Below are positions 1 through 61,657 of a stretch of 64,000 nucleotides of DNA, piece after piece. The stretch lies in the IMG/VR virus record IMGVR_UViG_3300045988_079610; one strand, given 5' to 3'. Each line of letters begins with the position of its first letter. The first letter of the stretch is position 1. The DNA comes from a virus. The translations under genes were made by a program, and so were the position numbers. The notes beneath the pieces are model-generated. The model saw only the letters and a list, made by a program, of their open reading frames with translations. It did no database searches and was not told the DNA's origin.

Positions 1-3000
1 AACAAGAAACTTATCAAAATGCTTCTGACTATCAAAATGAAGCTTTTGAAAACTTTAAAGCTAAAGGTCCTTTTGATGGAAAGAATTTAACTATGGTTAT
101 TAATACTATTAGAAATAATCAAATAGTTGCTGCTAAAAAAGTAGAAGATAATGGAGGTAATAAAACTGAGCAATATATTGCTAAACTAGAAGCTACAAGT
201 AATATATTAAAAGCTATTTACAAGAAAGTAAAACTTGATATTAATAAGTCAGAATCTGCTAAAGCTTTAATTGAAGCTAATAATGAACTTATTAAAGTAC
301 TTAAAGATAATTCTGTAAATAATGATAATGCTACTAATGAGCAACTTACTGAAATATATGCTGACAAACAAAATGAATTAGAGGATATTGCTAAAAATAA
401 TAATCTTTATTCATTTGATGAATTTAAAGAAGCTGCTATTAATCATCCTGAAGATGTTAATTCTAGAGATGCTAGAACTAATGAAATCTTTAGATGTATG
501 AGAGATATTCTTGCAAATCCTCTTAGTCTTGAAGAAAATCTTTCTCGTTCTAATTTTGATGACATTACAGATGCACTTAATGATTATATGAATCCTAATG
601 TTAAAGATGAACGTATTAATCGTAGTGCTTATAATCCTTTTGACCAAATGAGTTATCAAGAAGAAGCTATGAGTGGTGCTAAACTTAAAGCTTTCTCTGT
701 TACACTCGATACATTCTGTTCTGTATGCAACACTGTTAGACCGATTCTGTCTAAGCCAATTTACGTGGTCTATGACAAGTCAGACTACCAAGACCCTACA
801 ATTATTCAGAAACGTTTCAACGATACAAAGGAGAAGAATTTAAAATCTTCAAAAACTTTTCAAGTTCGTCATACAACTTATGGATGGAGTAATGATAATC
901 GTTGTGCAGCAGGTAAAATACTTACTTCATATAGTTCTCAAACTACTGCTTATATTCTTGATGCAATTAAGAGTGGTGCTATACCTAATGTAAATGATTA
1001 TACATTTGCTGTATTTAAAACTCTTGCTAATATTGGATGTGATTATAAAACATCTATTAGTTATATTATGCAACCTGGAGTTACTGAAATAGTTAATGCT
1101 TATAACGCAAATCATTCTGTATTCAGTGATTATCAAGGTGGTAATCCTATTAATGATGCTATTAAAAATATAGCTAAAAAAATGGGATATAAAGTGACTA
1201 ATAGAACTTCTGTTAAAGAACTTCTTAAAAAGATTGATGAAGATTATCATAAAGAATTTAATAAGATATTTGCTCAAAAAGGAGAAGAAATAACCATTAG
1301 TACAAATTATGATGATATTATTAATCTTCCTATTCTTGTAGGTAAGAATGTCACTAGACTTAAAGGAGAAGGTGAGTTTAAGAACCCCCCCGTAGGAGAT
1401 ATTACAACTAACCTTTTTGATCTTGGTGTAGTATTATCTTTTGGAAAGATTTATACTTCTGCTAAAGAAATAGGTGATATAGCTAGATGTTGTAATCCTG
1501 ATAAATTTGGAGCTAAACAAGATGTTTATACTACAAATAAGATTTTTGATGATGCTGTTGAAATGATTCAAAAGCATTCTGAGCAAGAACCTGATAAGCC
1601 TTATAATAGACCAGCCCTTGTTGTAAATAAAAACGGAAAAGATATTCATATTCTTGAAAGTATTTATCCTGGTCTTACAAATGTAAGTCAAGATAGTAAT
1701 GCTCATGGTATAATTACTGAAAATAGAATTGCTGAATCTTCTTATCCTAATCTTTATAGTTATTTAAAATATGCTTCTGCTACAAGTACTGTAGTAGCTA
1801 AAGCTGTATTGCCTACACAAAATCTTGGTTTTGTAAATCTTCTTAAAGGATTTACTCATAAACTTAATGGTTGGAATGTTAAGCTTACTCCTAAAGCATA
1901 TAAAGAACTTCAATCTTATGCTCTTGGTCATTTTTATAATCAATGTGAATTTGTTCAATATCCTATTGATTATTCTATAGATGAAAATGGTCAAATGAAT
2001 GTTCATCTTAGTGAAAATAGAACTGATGGAGATTTTGAAGCTGAACGTCAAAGAATATATGGTTATAATCAAAATACTTCTTTGACTATTAGACATACAG
2101 TTGAAGAGGATATGTATAAGAAAATAGATAGTAAACATACTTATATTACTCCTGAAGAATATAATGGATTGTCTTCTGAACTTAAAGCTAATTATGAATT
2201 AACCAAAGTTAAAGCTAAAGATGATGTTCCTTTTGAGGTTAAAGATATAAACAATACAACTAATGAAGAAATTAAAGAATTTGCTAAATTTAGTCCTGCT
2301 CAAAAAGTTGCTTGGATAAAGAAGAATTTTGACGATAGTGGTATATTTAGTAAACTTCAAGTTTCTCTTTATAATCCAGCTAGTAGAGGTTATAGAGTCG
2401 GAAGTCAGACTATAGAATATATTGAAGATAATGCTAATCCTAATATTGCTTATCAAGAATTTTATAATGCTTTCTTTGATAATAATCCTCTTGTTGCTAT
2501 TACAGCTTATGATTTAATAAAATATGCTGCTACTGTTGAAGGATTTAAAATGTCTCAAAGAGCTATTACTAAAATTATTGATAATAAAACTTTGATTGGA
2601 GAATTTGGTACTAATGGTACTGGTTTCCAAGATGCAGTTCTTAATAGAATTAATGATTTGGAAATGGCTAATAATCCAATGACTGCTAATGATGCAGATA
2701 ATAAATTCTATGAAGAATATCTTAGAAGTCATCCTAATACTGAAGGTATTAAAACTTATTCTGTAAATAAAAAGAATAATGAAAAATATCATCTTAATAA
2801 TACGTATGCTGATATTGTTACAATAACTATTGATAAAACTCTTGAAAATGAAAGTAAAGAAAAAGCTAAAGATGAATTTGAAGAAAGACTTGAAAAAGTA
2901 GGATTTATTACTAGAAATAGTAATGATAATACTTTTAAAGATAATCAATATGTTAGATTTAAGAGTAAGGCTAGAGGTATTGAAATTTATAAAATTGAAA

Positions 3001-6000
3001 AAATAGATGATAATGAATATATAGCTTATCCTCTTAATAAACTTAATATTAATGAGCATGGTACTTGGTCTGCTAATGAGGATTATAATATACATCCTCG
3101 TAGTGAAACATATCAATATATTATTGCTCAATATAAAACAGATAAAGAAAATGCTAAATTAGATAAAGATTATATAAAAGAACAGATTAATGATTATAGA
3201 GAGAATGAAGGTAATCCTTATTATAATCAAAGAAATAAGAATTATAACATTCCTGCTTTAGATTTTAATCTTGAACAGCTTGCTACTGAAGATGATGGTA
3301 ATGCAGCTTCTATTATTAGACAAAATATTATTAAACATTTTAGTTCTCTTGATAAGTATAAACCTTTAAGAGTTAAAAGTCTTACATTAGGAAGATATAT
3401 TATTAGTACTAATTCTACTAGTACTCAAACTATATCTTTTCCTGATGGAAGTAAACATACTTTTGCTATTACAAAGGAGAATACTAGAAAATATGATAGT
3501 GTTTATCTTAATGATAAAAAGTATACTAAAGAAGAAAGACTTGCTGCTGCTTATCAAATTAAAGACCCTCTTCTTAGAGACTCTTATGTTAAAGCAATAG
3601 AAGATAATCATGTTCATGTTGATAATATATTTAAGATTGTAGAAAATACAGATATTCTTCAAGGAGATGATACTTCTTTTGCAGCTAGCGTTGAAGAATC
3701 AGATTTATCTGCTCTTGAATATATTAATCTTGCTCAAAAAGGTCAAAGAGAAATAAAGACTGGTCTTGATGGAGAAATTTCTCTTGAAGTTCAAGCTACT
3801 CAACAAGCAAAAGTTCAAGGTATAAAACTCAAATATGATGATGTTAGAAATAATGTTGATGATGCTACTAGAATAGTTGCTGAATATGCAATTAAAAAAG
3901 CTCAACAACTTGTTACTAGATTTAATCAATATATTGAAGACCCTCAAAATCCTGGTACATATATTAGTTTAAGTGATGAAAGAATAATAGATGTTATTAA
4001 AGATAATCCTGTTGCTATTAGTAATTTCTTTAAAACACTTAATGAAATAAGTGCTTATAAAGCTAGATTTATAACATATAAGAGTTGTGATATAGCTACA
4101 GATAGTCCTGCTGTTAAGAAGTATGTTGAAGATATTAATGAAGCTTATGATAAAGTTGCATCTTTAAATGCAGATACAGCTAATCATAATCTTATGGAAA
4201 ACTATGTATCTAAACTTAGTACTAATCCTCTTATTAGAGAAGGAGTTTTAGATATTAGTGAAAATTATTATAAGACTTATGGTTCTATGTGGATGTTCCA
4301 TGATATAGCGGAAAATGGTAATCCTGCTCTTCAAAATATTCTTAAAGATGTTTATGGTCATATTGAAGCTAAAAGAATGATGGCACTTAGACAAGTAAGA
4401 GAATTTAAAAATCATATTAAATCAATTATTGATGCTGCTAAAAAAGAAGGTATAACTGTAGATATTAATAAGATTATTGATTCTAGAGGTATATTTGTTC
4501 AAGATTATTCTCAAGAATTTCTTGATAAAATGGAGGAACTTAGAAAAGCTAAAAGAGATGCTGCTAAACTTGGTAAAGGTTATGGTTCTATTGAATATCT
4601 TACAGCTAAAAATAAATATGATCAATATAAAGCTGTATATACTCATCAAGCTGCTAAACAAGATTATTATATTCAAAAAGCTAATCTTGAAAGACTTATG
4701 ATTAAGAATCATCCTAGAATTTATTCTAGATATATGACTCTTCTTTATAGGCAGCTTGATATATATAATTACATGACTGAAAATGGTATTCCTGAAGAGA
4801 AGCAAGAAGAACTTAATAGGATTAACGATGAAATGTTTAATCTTAGAGCTAATACTCAATATTATATCGAAGATGGAATTTCAAAAGAGCGTCCTGCTGA
4901 AGAACCAGACCATGACCCTACTGATTATGAATATTGGTCAAATCCTGAGAATGATTATGAGGCTAGTAGTATATATGATGTGCATGAAGCTAATGTTCTT
5001 AATGATTTCTTAAATAAAATGCACGAGCTTAATAATATGTATTTTGAATATACTCCTAAATACGGATTTGAAGATTTACTTCAAAAGAATCTTAGCATTA
5101 TAAGAACTATTGAAAAGCCTGATGCCAATGGTGTTCCTACTCAGTCTCAAGAAATACTTGAATCAAATCCTGAATATGTAGCTGCTAAAAAATGGATTAA
5201 AGAAAATGCTCAATATGAAATTAAAGCAGGTAAAAATGAAGATGGAAGTTTTGTAAATCCTTTAGCTGATAAGATTATTAAAGCTCTTAATAGACTTAAA
5301 CTTGGTGGTAATGGTAAATCAAGAACTGTAAATAGTATTATGCGTCATGCTAATAATAATGAAGGCATATATGATGCTAATAAAGTTCCTGATGGTACTA
5401 AACTTACTAAAGATGAAATAGATTCTATTCGTATCGAAATGGAAAATCGCTATGGTATAGCTGGTCTTCCTGCTGGTAGTGATAGAGTTATGATTTCTAA
5501 TGCTAAGCCTGATGGTCCTTTACTTAATGCAGCTTTCTATAGTAGATATGGTGGAGGTAAGAAAATTAATACTCCTGAATATATAGATATTATTACTCAA
5601 ATTAATAAGATTCATCAAAAGTATTGGAATCCTATTGATAAAACTGTTAATCTTCAAAATATACCAGATACTGAAGCTGGACATAAAGAACTCAAAAAAC
5701 TTGATGAACTTTATCAAAAACTTCGTCAAATTAGAGCTGCTAATAGTGAAAGTATTGATGAAGAAACTAAAAAATTTAGAGAAAAGTATACTGAATTTAA
5801 AGTTAATACTGAATTAGGTAGAGAACAAGCTAAAGGCATTGTAGGTAAATCTGATGAATTTAGAAAACTTTATCTCAATGTTGTTCTTGAAAAAAGAATT
5901 GATGGTACTATTAGAACTGATGAAAATGGTGTTGCTGTACCTAATAGATTACTTTATGGTTATCTTGCTCTTAAAGAAGACCTTTCAGAAGATGAAAAGA

Positions 6001-8957
6001 ATAGATTTATTGATAAACAAAGACAAGAAGATTTAAATCTTATTGATAAATCATATAAAACTGTTCGTACTAAATATTGGGAAAGAGCTTTAGCTGAAGC
6101 TCATAATCGTAGAGATACTGACCCTTCTTTTGATTATAATGCTTGGTGGAATAGTAATCATGTTTACAATCCTTATACTAGAGAAATGGAACTTCTTCCA
6201 TGTTGGACTACTAAAGCTATAAATCCTGAATATATGGAAGATGGTACTTTCCTTGGTGAATGGATTCCTAAAGCTGGTATGAGAACTAAGAAAGTTAAAG
6301 ATGGTATGACTAAACTTGATGGTCTTGACCAAAAATATTATCTTGAAGACCAAGATATGAGAGATAAAGACTATAAAGATGATGCTTCTCTTGCAACTAA
6401 TTATATAAAAGGTGCTAATAATGGTAAATATGATAATTCAACTCAACTTAATGATAGAGAAAAAGAATTAAGAGATTATATTCAAAATACTCTTATTAAG
6501 ACTGCTGGTAATATTGTTAGTAGAAGATATTTTGAATCAGGACGTGCTCCTCAACGTAGAAAAGCTGATTCTGTTGATGCTAAAATGATTCTTAAAGAAA
6601 CTGGTAAAATGGTTGGAATCGGTGTATCAACTAATAATGGTAAAAAAGATTTTGATGAACATATAGGTTATGATAATGATGTAACTCCTATTATGCCTAT
6701 GCTTAAAGATATAGTAAGTGTCAAAGTTACTAAAGTTGTTAAACCTGAAGAACTTGATGCTGCATTAAAATCTGATTATACTGTTACTCTTGATAGTAAG
6801 AAATTTAAAAAGCCAGAAAGACTTGATTACGAAACAAATGAAGATTATACTAAAGCTTTAGCTGAATATGAAGCAACTCAAGAACTTGTTAAAAAACATA
6901 ATGAAAAAGTTCGTGAAGATAATCTTGATAGAAATTGGATAGATGTTATCAGTGATTATATTAACCAAGCTTCTAGATATAATGCAATTCAAGATAGTAA
7001 GGAAAAACTTTATTGGTTACTTGAAGAACTTAGACATCAACAAGCTTATATTCGTAAGTATGGAGCTACTGGTGATTTAAGACTTGATAGTAGAAGAAGT
7101 ACTGATGATAATAATGTTTATCAAACTTCTACTGATGATAATCTTATTAAGCAATATGAAAATCAACTTAGAAGACTTCTTTGGGACCAATGGAAAGAAC
7201 CTGAAAATCATATGACTCGTTGGGCTAATCAACTTCAAACTTTTACATCTGCTAATTATATGATGCTTAATATACGTGGTGGTATTGCTAACATTACTGT
7301 TGGTATGCAAGGTATATTTGGTGAAGCTATGGCAGGTGACCAATTTAGTGCTAAAGGTTGGAGATGGGGAATTGCTGAATGGCATAAAGGACTTCCTGGT
7401 ATGGCTGCTGGTATGTATGATGAAAAAGCTCATGGTAAAGTAGATGGAGTTATTAAACTTTTTAAAGCTGTTGACTATGATGAAATTACTGGAGTTGTAA
7501 GAAATGCTGGTCTTGCTAAATGGTCTGAAAGAATTAGAAATGCAGGTTTCTCTCCTCAAACTATTACTGAAAACTTTATGCAAAATGGAGTTCTTCTTGC
7601 TATGCTTCATGAACATAAGATTATTACTATTGACAGTGATGATATTAGAGGTATTGGAGCTAGAATTATGAATAAGCGAGAATATTGGAATTATAAAAAG
7701 ATTGGTCTTCTTGCTGAAATTCTTGGTGAAGAACAATTCAATGAATATAAGAAGTTTAAAGAGGAAAAGATGAAAGACCCTAATCTTCTTAAAGATTATG
7801 CTTGGTTTAGAAAAGATTTAGCTACTGATTTTGTTGTTCAGCATTGTAGTTCTAAACAACGTGATGAATATGTAAAGAAACAAAAAGAAGCAAAAGCTAA
7901 AGTAGAAAAAGAATTTGATACTAAGATAGACCTTTATAGTCAAATGGAAGAAAAAGATGGTTATATTCAATTTAAAGAAGGTTCTGACCTTGCTAAACTT
8001 GATGAATTTAGAAGCGATAAAGATGGAGAAGATGTAACAAAATCTTATGCTCTTCTTGGTGAATTTGCTGAAAAAGTTCGTAAGACTAATAACTATATTC
8101 ATGGTGTATATAATCGTCAAGGTATGGCTTATATTGAAAAGACTTGGTATGGTAGTCTTGTAATGCAATATCATAAACATCTTCCAATGGGTCTTATGAA
8201 ACGTTATCATACTAGAGGTAATTGGAATGAATTTAGAAACTCTGTAAATAAAGGTATGATTCCTAGTTGTATAGACTTTTTAAAGCTAGATATTGATTTA
8301 GTTAAACATGATGCTGGTTTATCAGATGATGAAGTAACTACTCTTAAGGGTGTTCAAAATATTCTTACTCATAGTTATCAATTACTTACTCATCTTAAAA
8401 CAACTTGGGAAATAATGCCTGATTATGATAAAGCTAATATAAAGAGAAACCTTGGAGATTTGATAGGAGTTCTTGGAGGTATAATGGGTTCTATTGCACT
8501 TATAGCTTTAGGTGCTGATGATGATAAAAATAAAGGTGCATTTGAAAATATAATGGCAAATCTTGCTTTATATGAAAGTGATAGACTTACTTCTGAATCA
8601 TTTATGTACAATCCTATAGGTATGCAAACTGAACTTAAAACTCTTATGAGTACTCCTCTTGCTGCACAAAGTGTTATAAGTGATGGACTTAAAGCTATTT
8701 ATGAAATAGGTGGTTTTATAATGCAAGGTGATAGTTTTGACCCAATTTATAAAAGTGGTCGATTTGCTGGAGAAAATAAGCTTAGTGTTTATGTTCAAAG
8801 ACGTATTCCTATGTGGAATGGTATTAGACAAGTTATAGATTCCCCTGATAATAATCATTATTATAAAGTTGGTGATACTGCTTGTAGTCTTATTAATACT
8901 AAAGGTATTGGTAATTGGATTGGTGGTAGAGGTTATGATTATGGTAAAGAAGATTAG
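1..8957 (+). CDS. giant virion-associated/ejected protein, 5'-partial (terminal giant ORF of the late block)
   Basis: Frame 3 is open from the first base of the window (QETYQNASDYQ... precedes the first in-window ATG at 93) to TAG 8955-8957. NNT-biased codons throughout. Gly/hydrophobic membrane-like segment near the C-terminus (LGDLIGVLGGIMGSIALIALG). No catalytic motif recognised by eye. Confidence 0.85.
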   Translation, partial: QETYQNASDYQNEAFENFKAKGPFDGKNLTMVINTIRNNQIVAAKKVEDNGGNKTEQYIAKLEATSNILKAIYKKVKLDINKSESAKALIEANNELIKVLKDNSVNNDNATNEQLTEIYADKQNELEDIAKNNNLYSFDEFKEAAINHPEDVNSRDARTNEIFRCMRDILANPLSLEENLSRSNFDDITDALNDYMNPNVKDERINRSAYNPFDQMSYQEEAMSGAKLKAFSVTLDTFCSVCNTVRPILSKPIYVVYDKSDYQDPTIIQKRFNDTKEKNLKSSKTFQVRHTTYGWSNDNRCAAGKILTSYSSQTTAYILDAIKSGAIPNVNDYTFAVFKTLANIGCDYKTSISYIMQPGVTEIVNAYNANHSVFSDYQGGNPINDAIKNIAKKMGYKVTNRTSVKELLKKIDEDYHKEFNKIFAQKGEEITISTNYDDIINLPILVGKNVTRLKGEGEFKNPPVGDITTNLFDLGVVLSFGKIYTSAKEIGDIARCCNPDKFGAKQDVYTTNKIFDDAVEMIQKHSEQEPDKPYNRPALVVNKNGKDIHILESIYPGLTNVSQDSNAHGIITENRIAESSYPNLYSYLKYASATSTVVAKAVLPTQNLGFVNLLKGFTHKLNGWNVKLTPKAYKELQSYALGHFYNQCEFVQYPIDYSIDENGQMNVHLSENRTDGDFEAERQRIYGYNQNTSLTIRHTVEEDMYKKIDSKHTYITPEEYNGLSSELKANYELTKVKAKDDVPFEVKDINNTTNEEIKEFAKFSPAQKVAWIKKNFDDSGIFSKLQVSLYNPASRGYRVGSQTIEYIEDNANPNIAYQEFYNAFFDNNPLVAITAYDLIKYAATVEGFKMSQRAITKIIDNKTLIGEFGTNGTGFQDAVLNRINDLEMANNPMTANDADNKFYEEYLRSHPNTEGIKTYSVNKKNNEKYHLNNTYADIVTITIDKTLENESKEKAKDEFEERLEKVGFITRNSNDNTFKDNQYVRFKSKARGIEIYKIEKIDDNEYIAYPLNKLNINEHGTWSANEDYNIHPRSETYQYIIAQYKTDKENAKLDKDYIKEQINDYRENEGNPYYNQRNKNYNIPALDFNLEQLATEDDGNAASIIRQNIIKHFSSLDKYKPLRVKSLTLGRYIISTNSTSTQTISFPDGSKHTFAITKENTRKYDSVYLNDKKYTKEERLAAAYQIKDPLLRDSYVKAIEDNHVHVDNIFKIVENTDILQGDDTSFAASVEESDLSALEYINLAQKGQREIKTGLDGEISLEVQATQQAKVQGIKLKYDDVRNNVDDATRIVAEYAIKKAQQLVTRFNQYIEDPQNPGTYISLSDERIIDVIKDNPVAISNFFKTLNEISAYKARFITYKSCDIATDSPAVKKYVEDINEAYDKVASLNADTANHNLMENYVSKLSTNPLIREGVLDISENYYKTYGSMWMFHDIAENGNPALQNILKDVYGHIEAKRMMALRQVREFKNHIKSIIDAAKKEGITVDINKIIDSRGIFVQDYSQEFLDKMEELRKAKRDAAKLGKGYGSIEYLTAKNKYDQYKAVYTHQAAKQDYYIQKANLERLMIKNHPRIYSRYMTLLYRQLDIYNYMTENGIPEEKQEELNRINDEMFNLRANTQYYIEDGISKERPAEEPDHDPTDYEYWSNPENDYEASSIYDVHEANVLNDFLNKMHELNNMYFEYTPKYGFEDLLQKNLSIIRTIEKPDANGVPTQSQEILESNPEYVAAKKWIKENAQYEIKAGKNEDGSFVNPLADKIIKALNRLKLGGNGKSRTVNSIMRHANNNEGIYDANKVPDGTKLTKDEIDSIRIEMENRYGIAGLPAGSDRVMISNAKPDGPLLNAAFYSRYGGGKKINTPEYIDIITQINKIHQKYWNPIDKTVNLQNIPDTEAGHKELKKLDELYQKLRQIRAANSESIDEETKKFREKYTEFKVNTELGREQAKGIVGKSDEFRKLYLNVVLEKRIDGTIRTDENGVAVPNRLLYGYLALKEDLSEDEKNRFIDKQRQEDLNLIDKSYKTVRTKYWERALAEAHNRRDTDPSFDYNAWWNSNHVYNPYTREMELLPCWTTKAINPEYMEDGTFLGEWIPKAGMRTKKVKDGMTKLDGLDQKYYLEDQDMRDKDYKDDASLATNYIKGANNGKYDNSTQLNDREKELRDYIQNTLIKTAGNIVSRRYFESGRAPQRRKADSVDAKMILKETGKMVGIGVSTNNGKKDFDEHIGYDNDVTPIMPMLKDIVSVKVTKVVKPEELDAALKSDYTVTLDSKKFKKPERLDYETNEDYTKALAEYEATQELVKKHNEKVREDNLDRNWIDVISDYINQASRYNAIQDSKEKLYWLLEELRHQQAYIRKYGATGDLRLDSRRSTDDNNVYQTSTDDNLIKQYENQLRRLLWDQWKEPENHMTRWANQLQTFTSANYMMLNIRGGIANITVGMQGIFGEAMAGDQFSAKGWRWGIAEWHKGLPGMAAGMYDEKAHGKVDGVIKLFKAVDYDEITGVVRNAGLAKWSERIRNAGFSPQTITENFMQNGVLLAMLHEHKIITIDSDDIRGIGARIMNKREYWNYKKIGLLAEILGEEQFNEYKKFKEEKMKDPNLLKDYAWFRKDLATDFVVQHCSSKQRDEYVKKQKEAKAKVEKEFDTKIDLYSQMEEKDGYIQFKEGSDLAKLDEFRSDKDGEDVTKSYALLGEFAEKVRKTNNYIHGVYNRQGMAYIEKTWYGSLVMQYHKHLPMGLMKRYHTRGNWNEFRNSVNKGMIPSCIDFLKLDIDLVKHDAGLSDDEVTTLKGVQNILTHSYQLLTHLKTTWEIMPDYDKANIKRNLGDLIGVLGGIMGSIALIALGADDDKNKGAFENIMANLALYESDRLTSESFMYNPIGMQTELKTLMSTPLAAQSVISDGLKAIYEIGGFIMQGDSFDPIYKSGRFAGENKLSVYVQRRIPMWNGIRQVIDSPDNNHYYKVGDTACSLINTKGIGNWIGGRGYDYGKED
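1383..1399 (-). repeat. GC-motif copy 1 (coding)
   Basis: + strand AACCCCCCCGTAGGAGA, read in the giant ORF as N-P-P-V-G-D. Confidence 0.8.
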
Positions 8958-8975
8958 CCTGCCCGTAGAAAGACT
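8955..8975 (-). repeat. GC-motif copy 2 (gene boundary)
   Basis: + strand TAGCCTGCCCGTAGAAAGACT. Its TAG is the stop codon of the giant ORF. Confidence 0.85.
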
Positions 8976-9019
8976 GATGAAATCTAATATAGATATTAAT
9001 TAGAGTTAAATACAAATAA

Positions 9020-11910: not shown

Positions 11911-11952
11911 AGCTTTAGTACTTTAATTAATATCATACTATAAAAATAGGTA

Positions 11953-11987: not shown

Positions 11988-12173
11988 ATGATATTAATTA
12001 AAGTTAAATCGCTATTTAACTTATTGATTATCAAGTAGTTATAAACTATCTATATATATATATAATATAGCATTACTTTTACTGATAACTATTACAAACA
12101 TACTCATTATCTTTAAAACTAGCAATATTATCAATAGAATAATTACTATAATAAAGATAATTTAATAATTCAG

Positions 12174-12194
12174 CCTCTCTACGGGGGGTTTCTA
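12174..12194 (+). repeat. GC-motif copy 3 (intergenic)
   Basis: CCTCTCTACGGGGGGTTTCTA. Confidence 0.85.
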
Positions 12195-12257
12195 GTTTAT
12201 CTAGTACTTCTAAAACTTCTAATGACATTATTAGACATATTAGTACTAAGATTAGTA

Positions 12258-12278
12258 TATCCCGCCCGTAGGAAGACT
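12258..12278 (-). repeat. GC-motif copy 4 (intergenic, inverted partner of copy 3)
   Basis: + strand TATCCCGCCCGTAGGAAGACT, 63 nt from copy 3. Confidence 0.85.
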
Positions 12279-12283
12279 TGAGA

Positions 12284-17033: not shown

Positions 17034-17675
17034 TTATTTACTTTTATGTTTAACAAACTCTTTTCTAGAAGCATAATCTTCAGGAGACATAGCAATTACA
17101 TTTTCTTTATGTTCACTAGTAACAGGAATTTCTTTATTATCAGCGGATAAATTATATACATATCCATCTTTATCTTTACAAAGATGCTCAAAACCATAAG
17201 CATCTATAATTTCAAAAGTAACATCTTTTCTACTAGTTTCTTCAATAAGAATTAATTTACTTGTCTTAACAAGAGTAGAAATATCAATAAAAGATGTTTC
17301 TAGCTCCCCCGTAGAAGGTATCGTAGGTTCACCTTCTAACCAAGCTAATAACATATTGCAATAATTACCTAAATCTTGAATAGTATCAAACATAGTTTCA
17401 TCTTCAACATTAGGATTATTATAACCATTAAAATCTTCTTCTATAAAATGAATCAAACGATTAAGTTTATCATACATTCTAGCTAGACCATATCTATAGC
17501 CTAATTTATTACAACCTTTATTGAAAGCATTATCGTAATCAGCATTTTTTTTAGCCATAAGATTAAGCATCTTATTTTGCTGGTCACGTAAAGCAACAAC
17601 TTCAGGAGTAATAAGTTCTTTTGGAACTACTCCATTAAGAGCAGCTTTCCAATAATTTAAATCATTTTCTGTCAT
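17034..17675 (-). CDS. two-domain protein, N-terminal DUF1599-like domain (tentative)
   Basis: KKNADYDNAF...GLARMYDKLNRL resembles DUF1599 as recalled. GC-motif copy 5 lies in the mid-protein linker. Confidence 0.45.
   Translation of the reverse strand: MTENDLNYWKAALNGVVPKELITPEVVALRDQQNKMLNLMAKKNADYDNAFNKGCNKLGYRYGLARMYDKLNRLIHFIEEDFNGYNNPNVEDETMFDTIQDLGNYCNMLLAWLEGEPTIPSTGELETSFIDISTLVKTSKLILIEETSRKDVTFEIIDAYGFEHLCKDKDGYVYNLSADNKEIPVTSEHKENVIAMSPEDYASRKEFVKHKSK
17301..17321 (-). repeat. GC-motif copy 5 (coding)
   Basis: + strand TAGCTCCCCCGTAGAAGGTAT, read as P-S-T-G-E-L. Confidence 0.8.
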
Positions 17676-19948: not shown

Positions 19949-20021
19949 ATCGTTTCTGATTAATTATATTGCGGACATAATAAAACCGCTCACGTAAAAG
20001 AAAAACTGCATAAATGCGAAT

Positions 20022-20047
20022 ATTTCCTACGGGGCGGTTATAGTGAC
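20022..20047 (+). repeat. GC-motif copy 6 (gene boundary, TATAGTGAC tail)
   Basis: ATTTCCTACGGGGCGGTTATAGTGAC, ending 4 nt from the stop of 20051..20401. Confidence 0.85.
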
Positions 20048-22551: not shown

Positions 22552-23695
22552 AACTAAGAGTTTCTTTAATAAATTTATCTATTTCATCTTTAGTGTATTT
22601 ATCATGCAAATCTGCAAAGTCTTTACATTCATAATTACTAAGACCAAATTCGCCACGAGTAATAAATAAATAAGGAATATTATATGTTTCTAAAAGATAT
22701 TCAGCTCCTTCTCTACCAGTTCTGTCAAAATCTAGAAAACTAAGTATCATTCCATCATTAGATAATTTCTTTTTTATCCATTCATATTCGTTAGCTTTAA
22801 GTCTATAATTCTCACTAGGAAGATTAATCACTCCTATTTTTAGAAGTTTTCCAGTCCCCCCGTAAAGAGGCTTGTTTGTTAAATGACTTCCTAAACTAAG
22901 TCTATCTTTACTACTTTTAGTAATTATAATATAATCATAATCATCTAATTCAAGATTAGGTAGACCTTCAAGAACATTACAATTAGTAATAAACTTTAAA
23001 TCAATATGTCTATTCCTAAGAGGAAAATATAGTTTAATTAAATAAATACCTTGTTTATTTTGTCCAAGCATATAAGCATAACAAGGGTCTTTACTAACAT
23101 ATCTATATTTAGGTTCAGGATTAGAACTTCTATTGATATAATATTGGTCAACAGGAATTACAAAATGAGTATTAAGATAAGCAAGATTTACATTCCATTT
23201 ATCCCATATTTTTTTATCTTCTTTATTCCATGAACGTGGAACAAGTTCAATAATAGCTTTACGATCTTTACTTTTAAATAAAGCATTTTTTATATCATCA
23301 TCTGTAGAATAATCATGTTCACGATTGTCTATAACATCTGCAAATGTTCTATAAATATGTTTTAATATAAAATAAAAATCTTGTTTGTTATCAGTACTAA
23401 TAGGTCTTTCATAAGCAATACTAAGAACATAAGCTACAACTCCATATACATCTTCAAAGAAACCAAAACCTCCAAAATCTCTAACTTTAAGTCTACCTTT
23501 TCTATTATAAGCAATACCCATACTACCATCAGTATCATCATCTCTAAATACAGATTTTATGAGATTATTATGTTCAATACAATTTTGAACAGTTTCTATA
23601 GGAATATTTAGATATTTGCTTACAATATCTTCTTGACTTATACGAGATTCAATAAATGCTTTAGTTAAATGAGCAGTATTTATATTACGTTTCAT
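22466..23695 (-). CDS. DNA primase (Toprim domain)
   Basis: Toprim-like ...SFLDFDRTGREGAEY (DxD). Position next to replication genes. Confidence 0.7.
   Translation of the reverse strand: MKRNINTAHLTKAFIESRISQEDIVSKYLNIPIETVQNCIEHNNLIKSVFRDDDTDGSMGIAYNRKGRLKVRDFGGFGFFEDVYGVVAYVLSIAYERPISTDNKQDFYFILKHIYRTFADVIDNREHDYSTDDDIKNALFKSKDRKAIIELVPRSWNKEDKKIWDKWNVNLAYLNTHFVIPVDQYYINRSSNPEPKYRYVSKDPCYAYMLGQNKQGIYLIKLYFPLRNRHIDLKFITNCNVLEGLPNLELDDYDYIIITKSSKDRLSLGSHLTNKPLYGGTGKLLKIGVINLPSENYRLKANEYEWIKKKLSNDGMILSFLDFDRTGREGAEYLLETYNIPYLFITRGEFGLSNYECKDFADLHDKYTKDEIDKFIKETLSYVELRYRKENLCNSDAYYERLSNFDLPY
22852..22873 (-). repeat. GC-motif copy 7 (coding, TTTACGG variant)
   Basis: + strand CAGTCCCCCCGTAAAGAGGCTT, read as P-L-Y-G-G-T-G in the primase. 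Confidence 0.7.
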
Positions 23696-37886: not shown

Positions 37887-37910
37887 ATCTTTCTACGGGC
37901 AGGTTATAGC
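37887..37910 (+). repeat. GC-motif copy 11 (gene boundary, TATAGC tail)
   Basis: ATCTTTCTACGGGCAGGTTATAGC, flanked by the 7-bp direct repeat CAATAAT. Confidence 0.85.
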
Positions 37911-41624: not shown

Positions 41625-41874
41625 GTCATTATATTTATCATCATCTTCTTTAATAGATTTATAATTATTATATTGACTTTTATTAGTATTAATATTAGCT
41701 CTATTATCAACATTATTATAACAATAATCATCATTATTATCTATTATATCTTCATTTTATCTCATTATTATTATTTCATTATTATTTCATTAGTATTATC
41801 TATATAAATAGTATGTGTTTTGTCACTATAAGTATTAGAAGTTCTAGTCGAAGCTTGAAGTATTAGATGTCTAT

Positions 41875-41897
41875 AAATCCCGCCCGTAGAAGGACTT
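41875..41897 (-). repeat. GC-motif copy 12 (intergenic)
   Basis: + strand AAATCCCGCCCGTAGAAGGACTT. A TATAGTGAC-type sequence lies about 45 nt away at 41823-41838 (minus strand). Confidence 0.85.
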
Positions 41898-43736: not shown

Positions 43737-43750
43737 GACTAATTCATCAA

Positions 43751-43776
43751 CCTCTCTACGGGGAGGCTATAGTGAC
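43751..43776 (+). repeat. GC-motif copy 13 (gene boundary, TATAGTGAC tail)
   Basis: CCTCTCTACGGGGAGGCTATAGTGAC, flanked by the 7-bp direct repeat GACTAAT. The track's GTG start at 43772 lies inside it. Confidence 0.85.
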
Positions 43777-47523: not shown

Positions 47524-47812
47524 AGGTCAAACAATAAACTCTTCTACGGGGGGGTTTACAGATGATAGTATTAAAGTTGCTATTAATGATTTACGTAAAG
47601 CAAATATTAAACTTATACAATTAGATTATGAAAAAGATATTAATAAAAATCTTAGACAAATTATTGCAAATGATAGTGTACTTGCAGAACAAGCTAGACA
47701 AAGATATTTGGTACTGGATAGGTCGTGCAAGAAAATAAAGAAACAACGTAATATTGGAGTAGGTGTTGCTATTGGCAGCATACTACTCCTTATTATTTCA
47801 TTAATCAAGTAA
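47450..47812 (+). CDS. lipoprotein with C-terminal TM anchor (unimolecular-spanin-like)
   Basis: Signal plus lipobox-like LIMIVLLSC, C-terminal GVGVAIGSILLLIISLI. Overlaps the previous gene out of frame by 74 nt. Confidence 0.5.
   Translation: MQKLLKLKHLIMIVLLSCSTSLSSRGQTINSSTGGFTDDSIKVAINDLRKANIKLIQLDYEKDINKNLRQIIANDSVLAEQARQRYLVLDRSCKKIKKQRNIGVGVAIGSILLLIISLIK
47536..47559 (+). repeat. GC-motif copy 14 (coding)
   Basis: AAACTCTTCTACGGGGGGGTTTAC, read as N-S-S-T-G-G-F-T. Confidence 0.8.
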
Positions 47813-52537: not shown

Positions 52538-52546
52538 TAAAGTTAA

Positions 52547-52947: not shown

Positions 52948-54291
52948 ATGTTTGTATTTCGTAATACTTTAGGTTTTTACCAACATAAAAGACTTCAAAG
53001 TCCTGTTGGTGATATTGATTTTACTGGAGATGGTGGTGGTGTTACACCTCCTCCTTCAAATCCTCAAAATTCTCCTGATATAAATGGAGGTAAAGGAAAT
53101 GACATTAATGATAATGGAAATTCTGACAAAGATAAGGATAAAGATAATCCTGATGGTAATACAGAACCTCCTGCTAATGGTGGAGAAGGAAAAGGTGAAA
53201 AAGATAACAACCCTTCTACGGGGGAGCTTGAAGAAGGAACTAACATCGAATTAGATGGTGTGACTTATACTGTCGATAAAGATGGAAATGTTGTAGATAC
53301 TGATGGCAAAATTTTTAAAGAAGCTAAGGATGTTCAAGAATGGCTTAAAACTTTTAATGTAGATAATCAAAATCCTGAAGATAAAGAATTATCTATTGCT
53401 TCTATTCAGAAAGCTATTGGTGAAGAAATCGTTGATGAAAAAGGTCAACCTGTTGAATTTACAAATGATGTAGAGGGAGTTAAATCTTATATAGATAATG
53501 TTATTGCTCTTCGTTCTAATGAACTTCAACAAGCAGCAGTTAATAAGGTATTTAATGACAATCCTATTCTTGCTCAATTCGCTAATTATTTAGCTGTTAA
53601 TGGTTCTCCTAAAGGTTTTGGAGAAATGCCTGATAGAAGTGGTATCAAACTTGATGCTAATAATGAAGAACAACAAATTGCTATTATTAAAGCCGCTGCT
53701 AAAGAATTTGGAAATACTACACTTAATGATAATTATATTAAGTATTTGAAAGATGGTGGTGGACTTTATGATGAAGCTAAACTACAACTCCAAAATCTTC
53801 AAAATGCTGACAAACAACGTAATGAGGAATATGCTCGTAGAGCAGAAGCTCAACGTCAAGAAGAAGAAGAAGCTACTAATGCTTATTGGGAAAATGTTCA
53901 TGAAAAACTTAATTCTCATAAAATTGGCGAATATCAACTTCCTGAATCTTTTGTTCGTGAAGTAAATGGTCAAAAAATTACTACTACTATTGACGATTTC
54001 TTCAATTATATTTATAGAGCTACAGAAGACGAAGATGGAAATTATACAACTGCTTATCAAAAAGACTTAATGTCTAGAACAGCAGATGATAATATTAATG
54101 AACAACTTATTGCTGCATGGCTGACTTTTACAGGAGGAAGTTATAAAGACCTTGTGAATATGGCTGTTAGAGAAAAAGAAGTTAAAACTCTAAGACTTAA
54201 AGCTAAAGAAAATGATGGTCGTAAAACTGTTGTAATTACTAAACCAGCAAATGCTAACAAAACAATAGATATAGATAATCTAGTGTTTTAA
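52948..54291 (+). CDS. head-assembly/scaffold-like protein (tentative)
   Basis: Low-complexity G/N/D/K/P N-terminus then helical E/K/Q-rich body. Lies directly upstream of the MCP. Confidence 0.6.
   Translation: MFVFRNTLGFYQHKRLQSPVGDIDFTGDGGGVTPPPSNPQNSPDINGGKGNDINDNGNSDKDKDKDNPDGNTEPPANGGEGKGEKDNNPSTGELEEGTNIELDGVTYTVDKDGNVVDTDGKIFKEAKDVQEWLKTFNVDNQNPEDKELSIASIQKAIGEEIVDEKGQPVEFTNDVEGVKSYIDNVIALRSNELQQAAVNKVFNDNPILAQFANYLAVNGSPKGFGEMPDRSGIKLDANNEEQQIAIIKAAAKEFGNTTLNDNYIKYLKDGGGLYDEAKLQLQNLQNADKQRNEEYARRAEAQRQEEEEATNAYWENVHEKLNSHKIGEYQLPESFVREVNGQKITTTIDDFFNYIYRATEDEDGNYTTAYQKDLMSRTADDNINEQLIAAWLTFTGGSYKDLVNMAVREKEVKTLRLKAKENDGRKTVVITKPANANKTIDIDNLVF
53209..53232 (+). repeat. GC-motif copy 15 (coding)
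   Basis: AACCCTTCTACGGGGGAGCTTGAA, read as N-P-S-T-G-E-L-E. Confidence 0.8.
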
Positions 54292-58699: not shown

Positions 58700-58733
58700 G
58701 ATGATTAGTCTTCCTACGGGCGGGCTAATCATC
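58700..58733 (+). repeat. GC-motif copy 16 presented in the loop of an 11-bp hairpin
   Basis: GATGATTAGTC-TTCCTACGGGC-GGGCTAATCATC. Motif core is 58708-58730. Confidence 0.85.
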
Positions 58734-59620: not shown

Positions 59621-60187
59621 ATGAATGATAATATAAATAACCCCCCCGTAGAAGGTATAGATGCTTCTACACTTAATGCTGTTAATTCTCCATATAATGA
59701 AGTTTATGTTGAGAATGATGAATATGATGCAGGTACTAATATAGATGTTGAAGTTGTATATCTTACTATTCCTACTAAATGGATTCCTGTTTATCGTAAA
59801 TTACTTAGTCTTGTAGCTAATGGAGGTAAAGCTATTCTTGATGATTGTAATTATGGTTGTAAAGGTAATGGTAGTATTGTATTTAATTGTTGGAATATAT
59901 TTCAATCTGCTTGTGCTGCCCATACTGAAGGAAAAGAAGATGAAGCAGAATTGTTTATAAATTATGTTTCTAAACAAATAGATGCTTATAATAAAGCAAA
60001 TAGTATTAATATAAACGATAGTAGTTTTAAATATACTATTACTCCTGATGGTAAAGTTAAAGCTGATGGTGTTATTGAAGATAATACTGTAAGTTTAAGT
60101 CTTGATAAAGAAAATAAGGAAGCTTATGACAATTATCAAGCAAATAAAGATAATGGTAAAATTTATGTTGAACAAGATAACAATTAA
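59621..60187 (+). CDS. hypothetical protein
   Basis: 188-aa ORF. GC-motif copy 17 encodes residues 6-12. Confidence 0.65.
   Translation: MNDNINNPPVEGIDASTLNAVNSPYNEVYVENDEYDAGTNIDVEVVYLTIPTKWIPVYRKLLSLVANGGKAILDDCNYGCKGNGSIVFNCWNIFQSACAAHTEGKEDEAELFINYVSKQIDAYNKANSININDSSFKYTITPDGKVKADGVIEDNTVSLSLDKENKEAYDNYQANKDNGKIYVEQDNN
59636..59658 (-). repeat. GC-motif copy 17 (coding)
   Basis: + strand AATAACCCCCCCGTAGAAGGTAT, read as N-N-P-P-V-E-G-I. Confidence 0.8.
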
Positions 60188-61603: not shown

Positions 61604-61613
61604 CTAACTGAAG

Positions 61614-61657
61614 CGTAGAAGAGTAATACTAACACTCTTCTACGTGGGGGTTGTAAT
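61614..61657 (+). repeat. GC-motif copy 18 with an upstream inverted half-copy (11-bp hairpin)
   Basis: CGTAGAAGAGT-AATACTAAC-ACTCTTCTACG then TGGGGGTTGTAAT. The core has CGTGGGGG instead of CGGGGGGG. Confidence 0.8.

What the first reader, a model, noticed from the sequence alone, without database searches (positions are those of the whole stretch)
1383..61657. Dispersed GC-rich motif family (core CTACGGG plus G-run): 18 copies on both strands, in genes and between genes
Written in the CTACGGG orientation the copies are: 1383 TCTCCTACGGGGGGGTT; 8955 AGTCTTTCTACGGGCAGGCTA; 12174 CCTCTCTACGGGGGGTTTCTA; 12258 AGTCTTCCTACGGGCGGGATA; 17301 ATACCTTCTACGGGGGAGCTA; 20022 ATTTCCTACGGGGCGGTTATAGTGAC; 22852 AAGCCTCTTTACGGGGGGACTG; 28333 ACTCTTCTACGGGGGGGTTAGT; 31488 AAGTCCTTCTACGGGGGGGTTAA; 34575 AAGTTCCTCTACGGGGGAGCTTAA; 37887 ATCTTTCTACGGGCAGGTTATAGC; 41875 AAGTCCTTCTACGGGCGGGATTT; 43751 CCTCTCTACGGGGAGGCTATAGTGAC; 47536 AAACTCTTCTACGGGGGGGTTTAC; 53209 AACCCTTCTACGGGGGAGCTTGAA; 58708 GTCTTCCTACGGGCGGGCTAATC; 59636 ATACCTTCTACGGGGGGGTTATT; 61634 ACTCTTCTACGTGGGGGTTGTAAT. 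Nine copies read this way on the + strand and nine on the - strand, spaced roughly every 1-7 kb. Assuming about 30% G+C, a heptamer such as TACGGGG should occur about once in both strands of 64 kb, and here it also comes with conserved flanks (YCTTY upstream, GGYTA downstream). Three subfamilies are visible. (A) Intergenic CCSGCCCGTAGRAAGACT: copies 2, 4, 12, 16. (B) Intergenic with a TATAG(TGAC) tail: copies 6, 11, 13. (C) Coding AACCCCCCCGTAGAAGG or AGCTCCCCCGTAGARGG. Orientation relative to local transcription is mixed. That argues for a DNA-level function rather than a simple promoter or terminator. Candidates are a protein-binding, nicking or modification site, a Chi-like or packaging-related signal, or a miniature mobile GC cluster. 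I know of no described element with this sequence.
Basis: seen in the sequence. Interest (0 to 1): 0.85.

Follow-up and report, generated by a model that had tools for sequence, protein, structure and literature searches.

The report
Evenly spaced crAss-phage DNA tag
This gut-phage genome carries 18 copies of one short G-rich DNA word, spaced unusually evenly on both strands and kept at the same places (even inside essential genes) in related phages up to the prototypical crAssphage, so it is a real, conserved signal whose reader and purpose are still unknown.

Summary
There are exactly 18 copies, 9 on each strand. CTACGGG occurs 16 times against 0.33 expected, and a weight-matrix scan finds nothing between 2 and 16 bits.

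The motif is about 24 nt long and asymmetric: a pyrimidine tract, then YAYG, then a G-run. It is not private to this phage. Lineage-specific versions occur 20-35 times per genome in cr8_1, cr271_1, crAss002 and the prototypical crAssphage, which together cover three subfamilies of Intestiviridae.

About 15 of the 18 window copies have positional orthologues in cr8_1. The primase copy (sense) and the SNF2-helicase copy (antisense) sit in the same alignment column in all five genomes, although the encoded amino acids differ.

Copies are enriched between genes. They are spaced more evenly than chance, tend to alternate in orientation, and all 13 close pairs are inverted.

These data argue against chance, a peptide motif, a simple promoter or terminator, a recently mobile GC cluster and a robust hairpin. 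My best reading is a DNA-level array of recognition sites for an unidentified phage-encoded factor. The downstream process is unresolved: replication or recombination loading, silencing, or nicking. I found no description of the motif in the literature I could search.

The parts
1380..1403 (-). Copy 1, inside the giant + strand ORF 93-8957 (orthologue of the large ORF KNV35_gp93 of cr8_1), antisense to it. Read as NPPVGD in the gene.
   Evidence: 28.1 bits. Orthologue in cr8_1 at 10512(+).
8953..8976 (-). Copy 2, overlapping the stop codon of ORF 93-8957 and about 100 nt before tRNA-Gln. GGGCAGG type.
   Evidence: 19.8 bits. cr8_1 has a copy in the equivalent place, 11 nt after the stop of the orthologous gene (3399+).
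12171..12194 (+). Copy 3, intergenic. Left arm of a convergent inverted pair with copy 4.
   Evidence: 26.2 bits. The pair is conserved in cr8_1 (46+/119-) and cr271_1 (68771+/68806-). One of only two copies fitting a lenient terminator rule.
12256..12279 (-). Copy 4, intergenic, 5 nt after the stop of ORF 12284-12574(-). Right arm of the inverted pair.
   Evidence: 22.4 bits.
17299..17322 (-). Copy 5, coding, sense, in ORF 17034-17675 (PSTGEL).
   Evidence: 35.8 bits. Orthologue in cr8_1 at 88037(+).
20019..20042 (+). Copy 6, intergenic, 9 nt after the stop of ORF 20051-20401(-), anti-oriented, with a TATAGTGAC tail.
   Evidence: 27.8 bits. Equivalent copies in cr8_1 at 86695(-) and cr271_1 at 74327(+).
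22850..22873 (-). Copy 7, coding, sense, in the primase ORF 22466-23695 (PLYGG). TTTACGGGG variant.
   Evidence: 23.5 bits. Same alignment column in five genomes of three subfamilies. Read in another frame in crAss002 (PLRGN).
28331..28354 (+). Copy 8, coding, antisense, in the SNF2-type helicase ORF 27437-28849 (NPPVEE).
   Evidence: 28.3 bits. Same alignment column in five genomes, with variable amino acids.
31487..31510 (-). Copy 9, coding, sense, in the uracil-DNA glycosylase ORF 31123-31686 (SPSTGGL).
   Evidence: 34.3 bits. Same column in cr8_1 and cr271_1 and absent from p-crAssphage UDG.
34575..34598 (-). Copy 10, sense, overlapping the stop codon of ORF 34575-34916.
   Evidence: 23.4 bits. 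Orthologue in cr8_1 at 71511(+).
37885..37908 (+). Copy 11, intergenic, 33 nt after the stop of ORF 37941-38375(-), anti-oriented. GGGCAGG with a TATAGC tail.
   Evidence: 19.4 bits. No copy at the exact orthologous place in cr8_1. The nearest same-orientation copy there is about 1.1 kb away.
41874..41897 (-). Copy 12, in the long divergent intergenic region between the two gene blocks.
   Evidence: 26.2 bits.
43748..43771 (+). Copy 13, intergenic, 12 nt after the stop of ORF 43203-43736(+), co-oriented, with a TATAGTGAC tail.
   Evidence: 30.9 bits. Orthologue in cr8_1 at 62570(-).
47536..47559 (+). Copy 14, coding, sense, in ORF 47450-47812 just upstream of the terminase gene (SSTGGF).
   Evidence: 28.3 bits. 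Orthologue in cr8_1 at 58993(-).
53208..53231 (+). Copy 15, coding, sense, in ORF 52948-54291 (NPSTGEL).
   Evidence: 35.0 bits. Degenerate orthologue in cr8_1 at 53210(-), CTACGGAGAAG.
58706..58729 (+). Copy 16, in the 66-nt spacer between ORFs 57797-58684 and 58751-59374, co-oriented. Flanks extend it to a 12-bp inverted repeat (GATTAG...CTAATC).
   Evidence: 16.2 bits. Orthologue in cr8_1 at 47683(-).
59636..59659 (-). Copy 17, anti-oriented, at codon 10 of ORF 59621-60187 (possibly upstream of the true start).
   Evidence: 32.2 bits. Orthologue in cr8_1 at 46731(+). Fits the lenient terminator rule.
61632..61655 (+). Copy 18, intergenic, 12 nt before ORF 61667-62086, co-oriented. CTACGTGGGG variant.
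   Evidence: 17.8 bits. Orthologue in cr8_1 at 41895(-).

Best explanation
The copies form a genome-wide array of cis-acting recognition sites read at the DNA level by an unidentified, sequence-specific, phage-encoded factor.

Shown:
- The element is defined by nucleotide sequence, not by a peptide or a stable fold.
- It has been held at the same positions since the Intestiviridae subfamilies diverged, including inside essential genes and in both orientations.
- Its flanks differ by lineage while the core (pyrimidine tract, YAYG, G-run) stays the same. That is the pattern expected when a set of sites co-evolves with its reader.
- Copies sit between genes when they can and inside genes when no spacer is near. 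This keeps roughly one site per 3 kb (6-7 kb per strand) with unusually even spacing.

Inferred:
- The factor binds each asymmetric site and starts or limits a process that covers a few kb of DNA, so that even spacing gives full coverage.
- The tendency to alternate, and the strict inversion of close pairs, either reflects a strand-specific step or protects the genome from deletions between direct repeats. The phage encodes a RecT-type annealing recombinase.
- Of the possible downstream processes I favour loading or initiation of the replication or recombination machinery, slightly ahead of genome-wide silencing.
For: Counts against chance.

Family-wide occurrence with lineage-specific versions:
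- cr8_1: CCTTT-TACG-GGGSGGCTAGA, 28 copies.
- cr271_1: TCTTC-TACG-GGGGAGCT, about 20 copies.
- p-crAssphage: TCCATCCTC-YACG-GGGRGT, 23-35 copies.
- crAss002: CTCCTY-TAYG-GGGGAA, 29 copies.
- 88 IMG/VR stretches from about 35 crAss-like contigs.

Positional orthology. Core identity between window and cr8_1 is 0.77-0.81, against 0.44-0.62 in the flanks.

The primase and helicase copies are in the same alignment column in five genomes. Amino acids differ and crAss002 uses a different reading frame.

Two sense reading frames plus antisense and intergenic copies in the window.

Intergenic enrichment: P=0.0007.

Even spacing: per-strand CV is 0.31-0.54 against about 0.9 expected, with P<=0.005 in 7 of 8 strand sets of the four complete genomes. 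Window CV is 0.51, P=0.0025.

Orientation: 84 of 116 long-range transitions alternate, and 13 of 13 close pairs are inverted, P=0.0001.

Ordinary hairpin-plus-T terminators exist elsewhere in the window and differ from the motif.

The 2023 review states that the replication mechanism of Crassvirales is unknown.
Against: No reader protein was identified. Pfam and PHROGs gave nothing useful for the flanking ORFs.

The downstream process is pure inference. Motif orientation shows no bias between the two gene blocks, which the literature treats as replichores. That argues against simple lagging-strand priming.

Known primase and Chi signals are much shorter (3-8 nt).

The genomes compared share ancestry. 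The spacing and alternation statistics are therefore not independent replicates, and alternation is not significant in the window itself (10/16).

phi14:2 has no comparable motif. crAss001 and cr127_1 have different ones. The phenomenon may therefore not be one single system.
Confidence: 0.4

Rival explanations
1. Stoperator-like sites. A phage-encoded repressor binds the dispersed asymmetric sites and blocks elongating RNA polymerase. This would silence most of the genome during the non-lytic, plasmid-like or carrier state described for crAss-like phages.
For: Copy number (18-35), asymmetry, preference for short intergenic spacers, positional conservation and lineage-specific consensus all parallel Cluster A mycobacteriophage stoperators. 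Those comprise 20-30 sites whose consensus co-varies with the repressor. Non-lytic persistence is reported for C. communis and crAss001.
Against: [quoted passage not shown] Here the split is 11:7 in the window and about 1:1 in cr8_1, p-crAssphage and crAss002. Half of the copies lie inside genes, including anti-oriented copies conserved across subfamilies. No repressor candidate was found.
Confidence: 0.18
2. Site-specific single-strand interruptions. A phage nickase cuts one strand at each copy, as in phages T5, tf and phiKMV-like phages (from my own knowledge of that literature). This would give evenly spaced nicks on both strands for recombination, replication priming or relief of torsion.
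For: The motif is strand-asymmetric, 10-25 nt long, independent of coding and lineage-specific. It is evenly spaced on each strand. The phage encodes an ATP-dependent ligase and a RecT/exonuclease pair.
Against: There is no physical evidence. Inverted pairs only 25-120 bp apart would put nicks on opposite strands very close together. The HNH genes are not syntenic between relatives. In the known cases the nicks lie on one strand, or on one strand relative to transcription.
Confidence: 0.12
3. Chi-like or uptake-sequence-like identity tag. A translocating helicase-nuclease would read it as a polar signal, so that any DNA end meets a correctly oriented site within a few kb. The phage's own SF1 helicase plus PD-(D/E)XK exonuclease, or the host AddAB, are candidates.
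For: Both orientations occur in equal numbers, spacing per strand is even, the motif is indifferent to coding, and the scale is about 6 kb per strand. The phage encodes a RecD/Pif1-like helicase, an exonuclease, RecT and a Gam-like inhibitor.
Against: The conserved span is 14-25 nt, against 5-8 nt for known Chi sites. crAss001 and crAss002 both infect Bacteroides but carry different motifs, so a host Chi is unlikely. No excess of identity breakpoints was seen at sites once gene boundaries were controlled for.
Confidence: 0.1
4. RNA-level element. In transcripts the G-rich strand would fold into a short hairpin with a UACG tetraloop and G-U pairs, acting in mRNA processing, stability or termination.
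For: YCUUC[UACG]GGGGG can be drawn as a hairpin. Stems of 10-12 bp exist at 34589, 47545 and 58715. Lineage-level double changes occur at -5/+8 (C-G against T-A) and -6/+9 (C-G against A-T). Co-oriented copies fold somewhat better than anti-oriented ones (pooled P=0.004). RNA MFE is -6.2 against -3.6 kcal/mol for shuffles in the window.
Against: Seven of 18 window copies, and about half elsewhere, are anti-oriented, and their transcript strand cannot form the hairpin. Pairing is as frequent in shifted registers (0.79 against 0.78), because any pyrimidine tract pairs with any G-run. Observed pairing equals the expectation from column composition. cr8_1 copies fold no better than shuffles. The tetraloop hairpin is the MFE structure in only 28 of 96 copies. 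No T-run follows, and only 2 of 12 copies fit a lenient terminator rule, both anti-oriented. There is no Rfam match.
Confidence: 0.07
5. Selfish miniature mobile GC cluster (like yeast mitochondrial GC clusters, REPINs or MITEs) that has spread by transposition or gene conversion.
For: GC-rich islands sit in a 28% G+C genome, in both orientations, often just after stop codons and sometimes as inverted pairs. Flanks have evolved in concert within each lineage.
Against: Positions are conserved between genera and subfamilies. No insertion or deletion of a motif-sized block appears in the UDG alignment. No target-site duplications were seen and no transposase was found. Even spacing is not expected for selfish spread.
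Confidence: 0.04

Closest known systems
Stoperators of Cluster A mycobacteriophages (L5, Bxb1): 13-bp asymmetric repressor sites
   Same: Tens of copies of an asymmetric site are spread over the whole phage genome, mostly in short intergenic spacers. Positions are syntenic between relatives, and the consensus differs between lineages in step with the cognate protein.
   Different: Stoperators point one way relative to transcription. Here orientation is about 1:1 and tends to alternate. Many copies are deep inside genes, the conserved span is longer, and no repressor is known.
Chi sites, and DNA uptake sequences (DUS/USS) of Neisseria and Haemophilus (from my own knowledge)
   Same: These are over-represented polar words found in both orientations inside and outside genes. 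They are evenly spaced on a kb scale, occur as inverted pairs behind genes (DUS), use preferred reading frames when coding, and have lineage 'dialects'.
   Different: Those are cellular signals of 5-12 nt, read by RecBCD/AddAB or by the uptake machinery. This motif is viral and longer, and it differs between phages that infect the same host genus.
Localized nick sites of phages T5, tf and phiKMV-like phages (from my own knowledge)
   Same: A conserved 9-20 nt consensus occurs at a limited number of fixed genome positions, and the action is strand-specific.
   Different: Nicks have not been looked for here. Known cases have fewer sites, and those are biased to one strand.
REP/BIME elements, and homologous regions (hrs) of baculoviruses (from my own knowledge)
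   Same: These are GC-rich or palindromic repeats dispersed around a genome, often just after stop codons or between genes. They bind architectural or initiator proteins (gyrase and IHF; IE-1), and hrs serve as origins and enhancers.
   Different: REPs are strictly extragenic and not positionally conserved. hrs are tandem arrays of palindromes. This motif is a single asymmetric unit and is also kept inside genes.
Promoters of phage RNA polymerases (T7-type 23-bp promoters; N4 virion-RNAP hairpin promoters)
   Same: They are about 20-25 nt long, number tens of copies, and have a lineage-specific consensus. crAss virion RNAP uses single-stranded templates. Two window copies read GTCACTATAG/A on the opposite strand, resembling the T7 core CACTATAG.
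   Different: Orientation does not follow the genes, and copies lie inside genes. No common motif was found upstream of phi14:2 early transcripts, and middle/late promoters are of the host type. No T7-like RNAP gene was recognised.

Membership tests
Stoperators (mycobacteriophage Cluster A) | 20-30 asymmetric sites dispersed over the genome | tested here: met
   18 copies in 64 kb, and 20-35 per complete related genome. The motif is not its own reverse complement.
Stoperators (mycobacteriophage Cluster A) | Sites predominantly in one orientation relative to transcription | tested here: not met
   11 co-oriented and 7 anti-oriented in the window, 13:14 in cr8_1 and 15:14 in crAss002. The requirement is as stated.
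Stoperators (mycobacteriophage Cluster A) | Bound by a cognate immunity repressor that blocks elongation | not testable with these tools
   No repressor candidate was identified. Binding needs experiments.
Chi sites | Short (5-8 nt) word specified by the host RecBCD/AddAB, hence shared by elements of the same host | tested here: not met
   The conserved span is 14-25 nt. crAss001 and crAss002 both infect Bacteroides but carry CTTCTGGAG and CTCCTYTAYGGGGGAA respectively.
Chi sites | Stimulates recombination nearby | tested here: inconclusive
   Identity shifts between related genomes are larger at sites overall (P=8e-5). The effect disappears once gene boundaries are controlled for (P=0.77 and P=0.15).
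Intrinsic (rho-independent) terminators | Stable G+C-rich hairpin followed by a T-run, oriented with the gene | tested here: not met
   Only 2 of the 12 copies in the two scanned 20-kb stretches pass a lenient rule, and both are anti-oriented. Canonical terminators lie elsewhere.
Structured RNA family (Rfam) or UNCG-tetraloop hairpin | Register-specific base pairing supported by covariation | tested here: inconclusive
   There is no Rfam hit. Pairing is 0.78 in the tetraloop register against 0.79 in the triloop register. Observed pairing equals expected. Two lineage-level double substitutions are the only positive sign.
Phage RNA-polymerase promoters | Located upstream of genes and co-oriented with them | tested here: not met
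   Nine copies are inside ORFs and seven are anti-oriented. phi14:2 early transcripts have no common motif.
Mobile GC clusters, MITEs, REPINs | Presence/absence polymorphism between relatives, insertion footprints, extragenic location | tested here: not met
   About 15 of 18 positions are shared with cr8_1. Two coding positions are shared across three subfamilies. No motif-sized indel appears in UDG. Half of the copies are coding.
Localized nick sites (T5, tf, phiKMV-like) | A physical single-strand break at the consensus | not testable with these tools
   Needs native virion DNA (alkaline gel, or nanopore or PacBio read ends).
DUS/USS-type uptake sequences | Both orientations, even spacing, inverted pairs behind genes, preferred reading frames | tested here: met
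   The resemblance is one of distribution only, since the defining uptake machinery does not apply to a phage.

The most novel reading that the evidence does not exclude
Intestiviridae, including the prototypical crAssphage, may carry a virus-encoded 'genome punctuation' system. In this reading a lineage-specific polar tag is kept every few kb on each strand, even inside essential genes, and is read by an unknown phage machine. Examples would be fixed start or loading sites for discontinuous DNA synthesis, or a self-DNA identity mark analogous to Chi or DUS but specified by the virus. No such system has been described for any phage.
Probability: 0.3. Interest if true: 0.9.

Novelty: new variant of a known kind. 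Interest (0 to 1): 0.8.

Why it matters
crAss-like phages are the most abundant viruses of the human gut. Their replication mechanism, their gene regulation and the basis of their long-term persistence are largely unknown.

This is a roughly 24-nt signal under selection strong enough to override codon choice in the primase, helicase, UDG and giant virion-protein genes across three subfamilies. It must serve a central step of the life cycle, and it gives a concrete experimental handle: an oligonucleotide bait to fish out its reader.

The lineage-specific versions could explain incompatibility or competition between co-infecting crAss lineages. They could also serve as compact taxonomic markers.

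Other Crassvirales families carry different dispersed GC-rich words (crAss001, cr127_1). The principle may therefore be general while the sequence is not.

Tried and rejected
- **Chance or composition:** rejected by shuffles.
- **Peptide motif:** rejected. Window copies occur in two sense frames, antisense and between genes. In the primase, crAss002 reads the same site in another frame.
- **Robust hairpin:** not supported.
  - Observed pairing equals what column composition predicts.
  - Shifted registers pair equally well.
  - DNA folding energies are about zero, and RNA energies are only modestly below shuffles and not at all in cr8_1.
- **Two functional subtypes tied to transcription direction:** rejected. 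The contrasts are G7 against GGGGCGG in cr8_1, GGGGGG against GGGGAG in p-crAssphage, and TACG against TATG in crAss002.
  - Intergenic and antisense-coding copies carry the default form.
  - The deviating sense-coding copies are explained by amino-acid constraints. In crAss002, ACG (Thr) or CGG (Arg) is used instead of ATG (Met) or TGG (Trp). By inspection, the G-run variants of cr8_1 and p-crAssphage fit Gly-Gly codons in the same way.
- **Recombination breakpoints at sites:** the apparent signal disappears when gene boundaries are controlled for.
- **Two RepL-like paralogues next to motif pairs in the window:** ORFs 11377-11910 and 43203-43736 are unrelated and have no Pfam hit.
- **Primase type:** no Pfam or PDB sequence match, so the primase type could not be used as an argument.
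- **T7-like promoter reading of the GTCACTATAG tail:** this applies to only 2 of 18 copies, and no T7-like RNAP gene was recognised.
- **Mimicry of 16S rRNA helix 14 (target of primer 341F):** noted and judged coincidental.
- **Literature:** searches by sequence and by topic found no description. Several early searches were wasted on the prefix 'crass' matching Crassostrea and Neurospora crassa.
- **Window's own species:** it is not in IMG/VR at high identity; the best stretches are 84-89% identical.

Full report
**Observation**

The window is a 28% G+C Crassvirales genome segment. Its layout is:
- a giant + strand ORF (93-8957);
- tRNA-Gln (9073-9144);
- a - strand replication block (about 9982-41161);
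- a + strand structural block (42582-63448).

The nearest GenBank relative is cr8_1 (Intestiviridae, Obtuvirinae), at about 78% nucleotide identity over the parts that align and in reverse synteny.

CTACGGG occurs 16 times against 0.33 expected. With the two stated variants there are 18 copies, 9 on each strand. A weight matrix gives exactly these 18 hits (16-36 bits), nothing between 2 and 16 bits, and no hits in shuffles.

**Anatomy**

Aligned on the T of TACG, conservation runs from about -9 to +14. The pattern is A at -8, a pyrimidine tract from -6 to -1, TACG, a G-run with one variable position, and T at +11. The motif is asymmetric.

Nine copies lie outside the main ORFs, although only 15.6% of the window does (P=0.0007). 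These copies typically sit a few nucleotides after a stop codon, or inside a short spacer between co-directional genes.

Nine copies are inside ORFs:
- six sense copies, in two different frames (PSTGG/PSTGEL and LYGG);
- three antisense copies (NPPVE/NPPVG).

This excludes a peptide motif.

**Relatives**

The same family occurs, with lineage-specific flanks, in:
- cr8_1: CATACCTTT-TACG-GGGSGGCTAGA, 28 copies;
- cr271_1: CAYTTCTTC-TACG-GGGGAGCT, about 20 copies;
- the prototypical crAssphage, Carjivirus communis: TCCATCCTC-YACG-GGGRGTMTA, 23 copies by a strict count and 35 by a loose one;
- crAss002: CTCCTY-TAYG-GGGGAA, 29 copies;
- 88 stretches from about 35 crAss-like IMG/VR contigs.

It therefore spans three subfamilies of Intestiviridae. 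The invariant core is a pyrimidine tract, then YAYG, then GGGG.

About 15 of the 18 window copies have a copy at the orthologous place and in the same relative orientation in cr8_1. Anchored on the motif, core identity is 0.77-0.81, against 0.44-0.62 in the flanks.

Protein alignments give the clearest result:
- The primase copy (sense) falls in the same column in all five genomes.
- The SNF2-helicase copy (antisense) does too.
- The encoded residues vary: NPPVEE, SRPVKE, STPVEE, LLPVEE, HSPIKE.
- In the crAss002 primase the motif is read in another frame (PLRGN instead of LYGG).

In the UDG alignment the motif is not a motif-sized insertion. These facts show old, strong purifying selection on the nucleotide sequence. 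They exclude a recently mobile element.

**Distribution**

In the four complete genomes the copies on each strand are spaced far more evenly than random. CV is 0.31-0.54 against about 0.9, and P<=0.005 in 7 of 8 strand sets. In the window, CV for all copies is 0.51 (P=0.0025) and for the + strand 0.34 (P=0.003).

Strand counts are balanced (9/9, 14/14, 17/18, 16/13), apart from 13/7 in cr271_1. Orientation tends to alternate, with 84 of 116 transitions between distant neighbours. This is significant in cr8_1, p-crAssphage and crAss002 but not in the window. All 13 close pairs (<300 bp) are inverted (P=0.0001). Because the sites are orthologous between genomes, these tests are not independent replicates.

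**What it is not**

Promoter or terminator:
- Orientation is 11:7 relative to transcription in the window and about 1:1 elsewhere.
- Only 2 of the 12 copies in the two scanned stretches pass a lenient terminator rule, and both are anti-oriented.
- The phage has ordinary hairpin-plus-T terminators at other places.
- The published work on phi14:2 found no common motif before early transcripts and found host-type middle/late promoters.

Hairpin:
- The attractive YCUUC[UACG]GGGGG fold is not register-specific (0.78 against 0.79 paired in a shifted register).
- It shows no pairing beyond what column composition predicts.
- It has negligible DNA stability and only modest RNA stability, none in cr8_1.
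- Two lineage-level double substitutions (-5/+8 and -6/+9) keep it from being excluded.

Other points:
- No Rfam family matches.
- Apparent 'sense' and 'antisense' subtypes in cr8_1, p-crAssphage and crAss002 are explained by coding constraints on sense-coding copies.
- An apparent excess of identity breakpoints at sites vanishes after controlling for gene boundaries.

**Best explanation**

The evidence fits a DNA-level array of recognition sites for a phage-encoded, sequence-specific factor.

- Lineage-specific flanks on positionally conserved sites mean that all copies changed together. That is the signature of co-evolution with a reader, as documented for stoperators and their repressors.
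- The phage places sites in spacers where possible and inside genes where it must, which keeps the spacing regular. This suggests that the factor's action has a limited reach along DNA.
- Alternation and the strict inversion of close pairs could mean a strand-specific step. They could also be a safeguard against deletion between direct repeats, since the phage encodes a RecT-type annealing recombinase.

The downstream process cannot be settled here:
- I rank loading or initiation of replication or recombination slightly first.
- Stoperator-like silencing, nick sites and a Chi- or DUS-like identity tag follow.
- Against simple lagging-strand priming: there is no orientation bias between the two gene blocks that the literature regards as replichores.
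- Against host Chi: the length of the motif, and the fact that crAss001 and crAss002 infect Bacteroides but carry different words.

**Comparison with what is known**

In distribution the motif resembles stoperators, Chi, DUS/USS and phage nick consensus sequences. It fails the defining orientation rule of stoperators and the length and host-specificity rules of Chi. The defining features of nick sites and uptake sequences cannot be tested or do not apply.

I found no description of the motif in the papers I could search. These included the crAss RNAP study, the Yutin genome survey, the crAss001 transcriptome paper, the C. communis phage-plasmid preprint and a 2023 review. Direct sequence searches also found nothing. 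The library lacks most subscription journals, so an earlier description cannot be excluded.

**Verdict**

The feature is real and under strong selection. It is family-wide in the most abundant human gut phages and functionally unexplained.
- I class it as a new variant of the known kind 'dispersed polar genome signal'.
- There is a substantial chance that the underlying system is new.
- Interest: 0.8.

Noticed in passing
L095/L096 (Bacteroides phage crAss001, NC_049977.1, first 100 kb): A different dispersed asymmetric word, CTTCTGGAG, occurs 27 times against 1.2 expected. It is found on both strands, inside and outside genes. Orientation alternates (19/26, P=0.003) and spacing on the - strand is even (CV 0.46, P=0.0002). 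It shares CTTCT...GGAG with the Intestiviridae motif.
   Followed up: partly
L106/L107 (cr127_1, Crevaviridae, NC_055886.1): A roughly 38-nt GC-rich element, AATTTCGGAACACCTCTCGCCCTTGTGGCCATTA, is present 10 times on both strands, partly as inverted pairs (e.g. 28699+/28878-, 42041+/42239-). It is a third, unrelated dispersed element in an AT-rich crAss genome. phi14:2 shows nothing comparable.
   Followed up: partly
window 41369-41392 and 41444-41805: In the divergent intergenic region, TGATGACGGGGGAGTCCAATTTC is a degenerate relative of the motif and is conserved in cr8_1 (64556-). It is followed by AT-rich tandem repeats with periods of 12, 18 and 27. This could be an origin or control region.
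   Followed up: partly
window 42140-42460: An ORF-poor stretch has higher G+C than its surroundings. Its RNA fold is not better than shuffles (z=-1.2 and z=+0.8) and it has no Rfam hit.
   Followed up: partly
window 9231-9263(+), 9340-9309(-), 9955-9926(-), 41988-41957(-), 52545-52569(+), 11950-11985: Canonical hairpin-plus-T-run terminator-like sites flank the tRNA gene and the ends of gene blocks. This shows that the phage uses ordinary terminators distinct from the motif. The last site, read by eye, is TTTTCCCCA...TGGGGAAAA.
   Followed up: no
window 32130-32165: An inverted repeat, TTGGCAAATAGGCAAATTGCCAA, lies in the spacer before the SF1 helicase gene. At the equivalent place cr8_1 carries an extra motif copy (74613-).
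   Followed up: no
window 23692-24399: The HNH endonuclease ORF (Pfam HNH_3) lies upstream of the primase gene. The HNH genes of cr8_1 and cr271_1 lie next to the ligase gene instead. It looks like a mobile homing-type gene rather than a conserved partner of the motif.
   Followed up: partly
window 12256-12279, 43748-43771 and other copies: The motif resembles the 16S rRNA helix-14 region targeted by the universal primer 341F (CCTACGGGNGGCWGCAG). The sequence search for the motif mostly returned 16S primer listings. This is probably coincidental.
   Followed up: no
window 19983-20018 / L002 36696-36740: Upstream of copy 6 and of its cr8_1 counterpart, a second short block (CCGCTCACGTA) is conserved about 35-45 nt before the motif, within an otherwise diverged intergenic region.
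   Followed up: no
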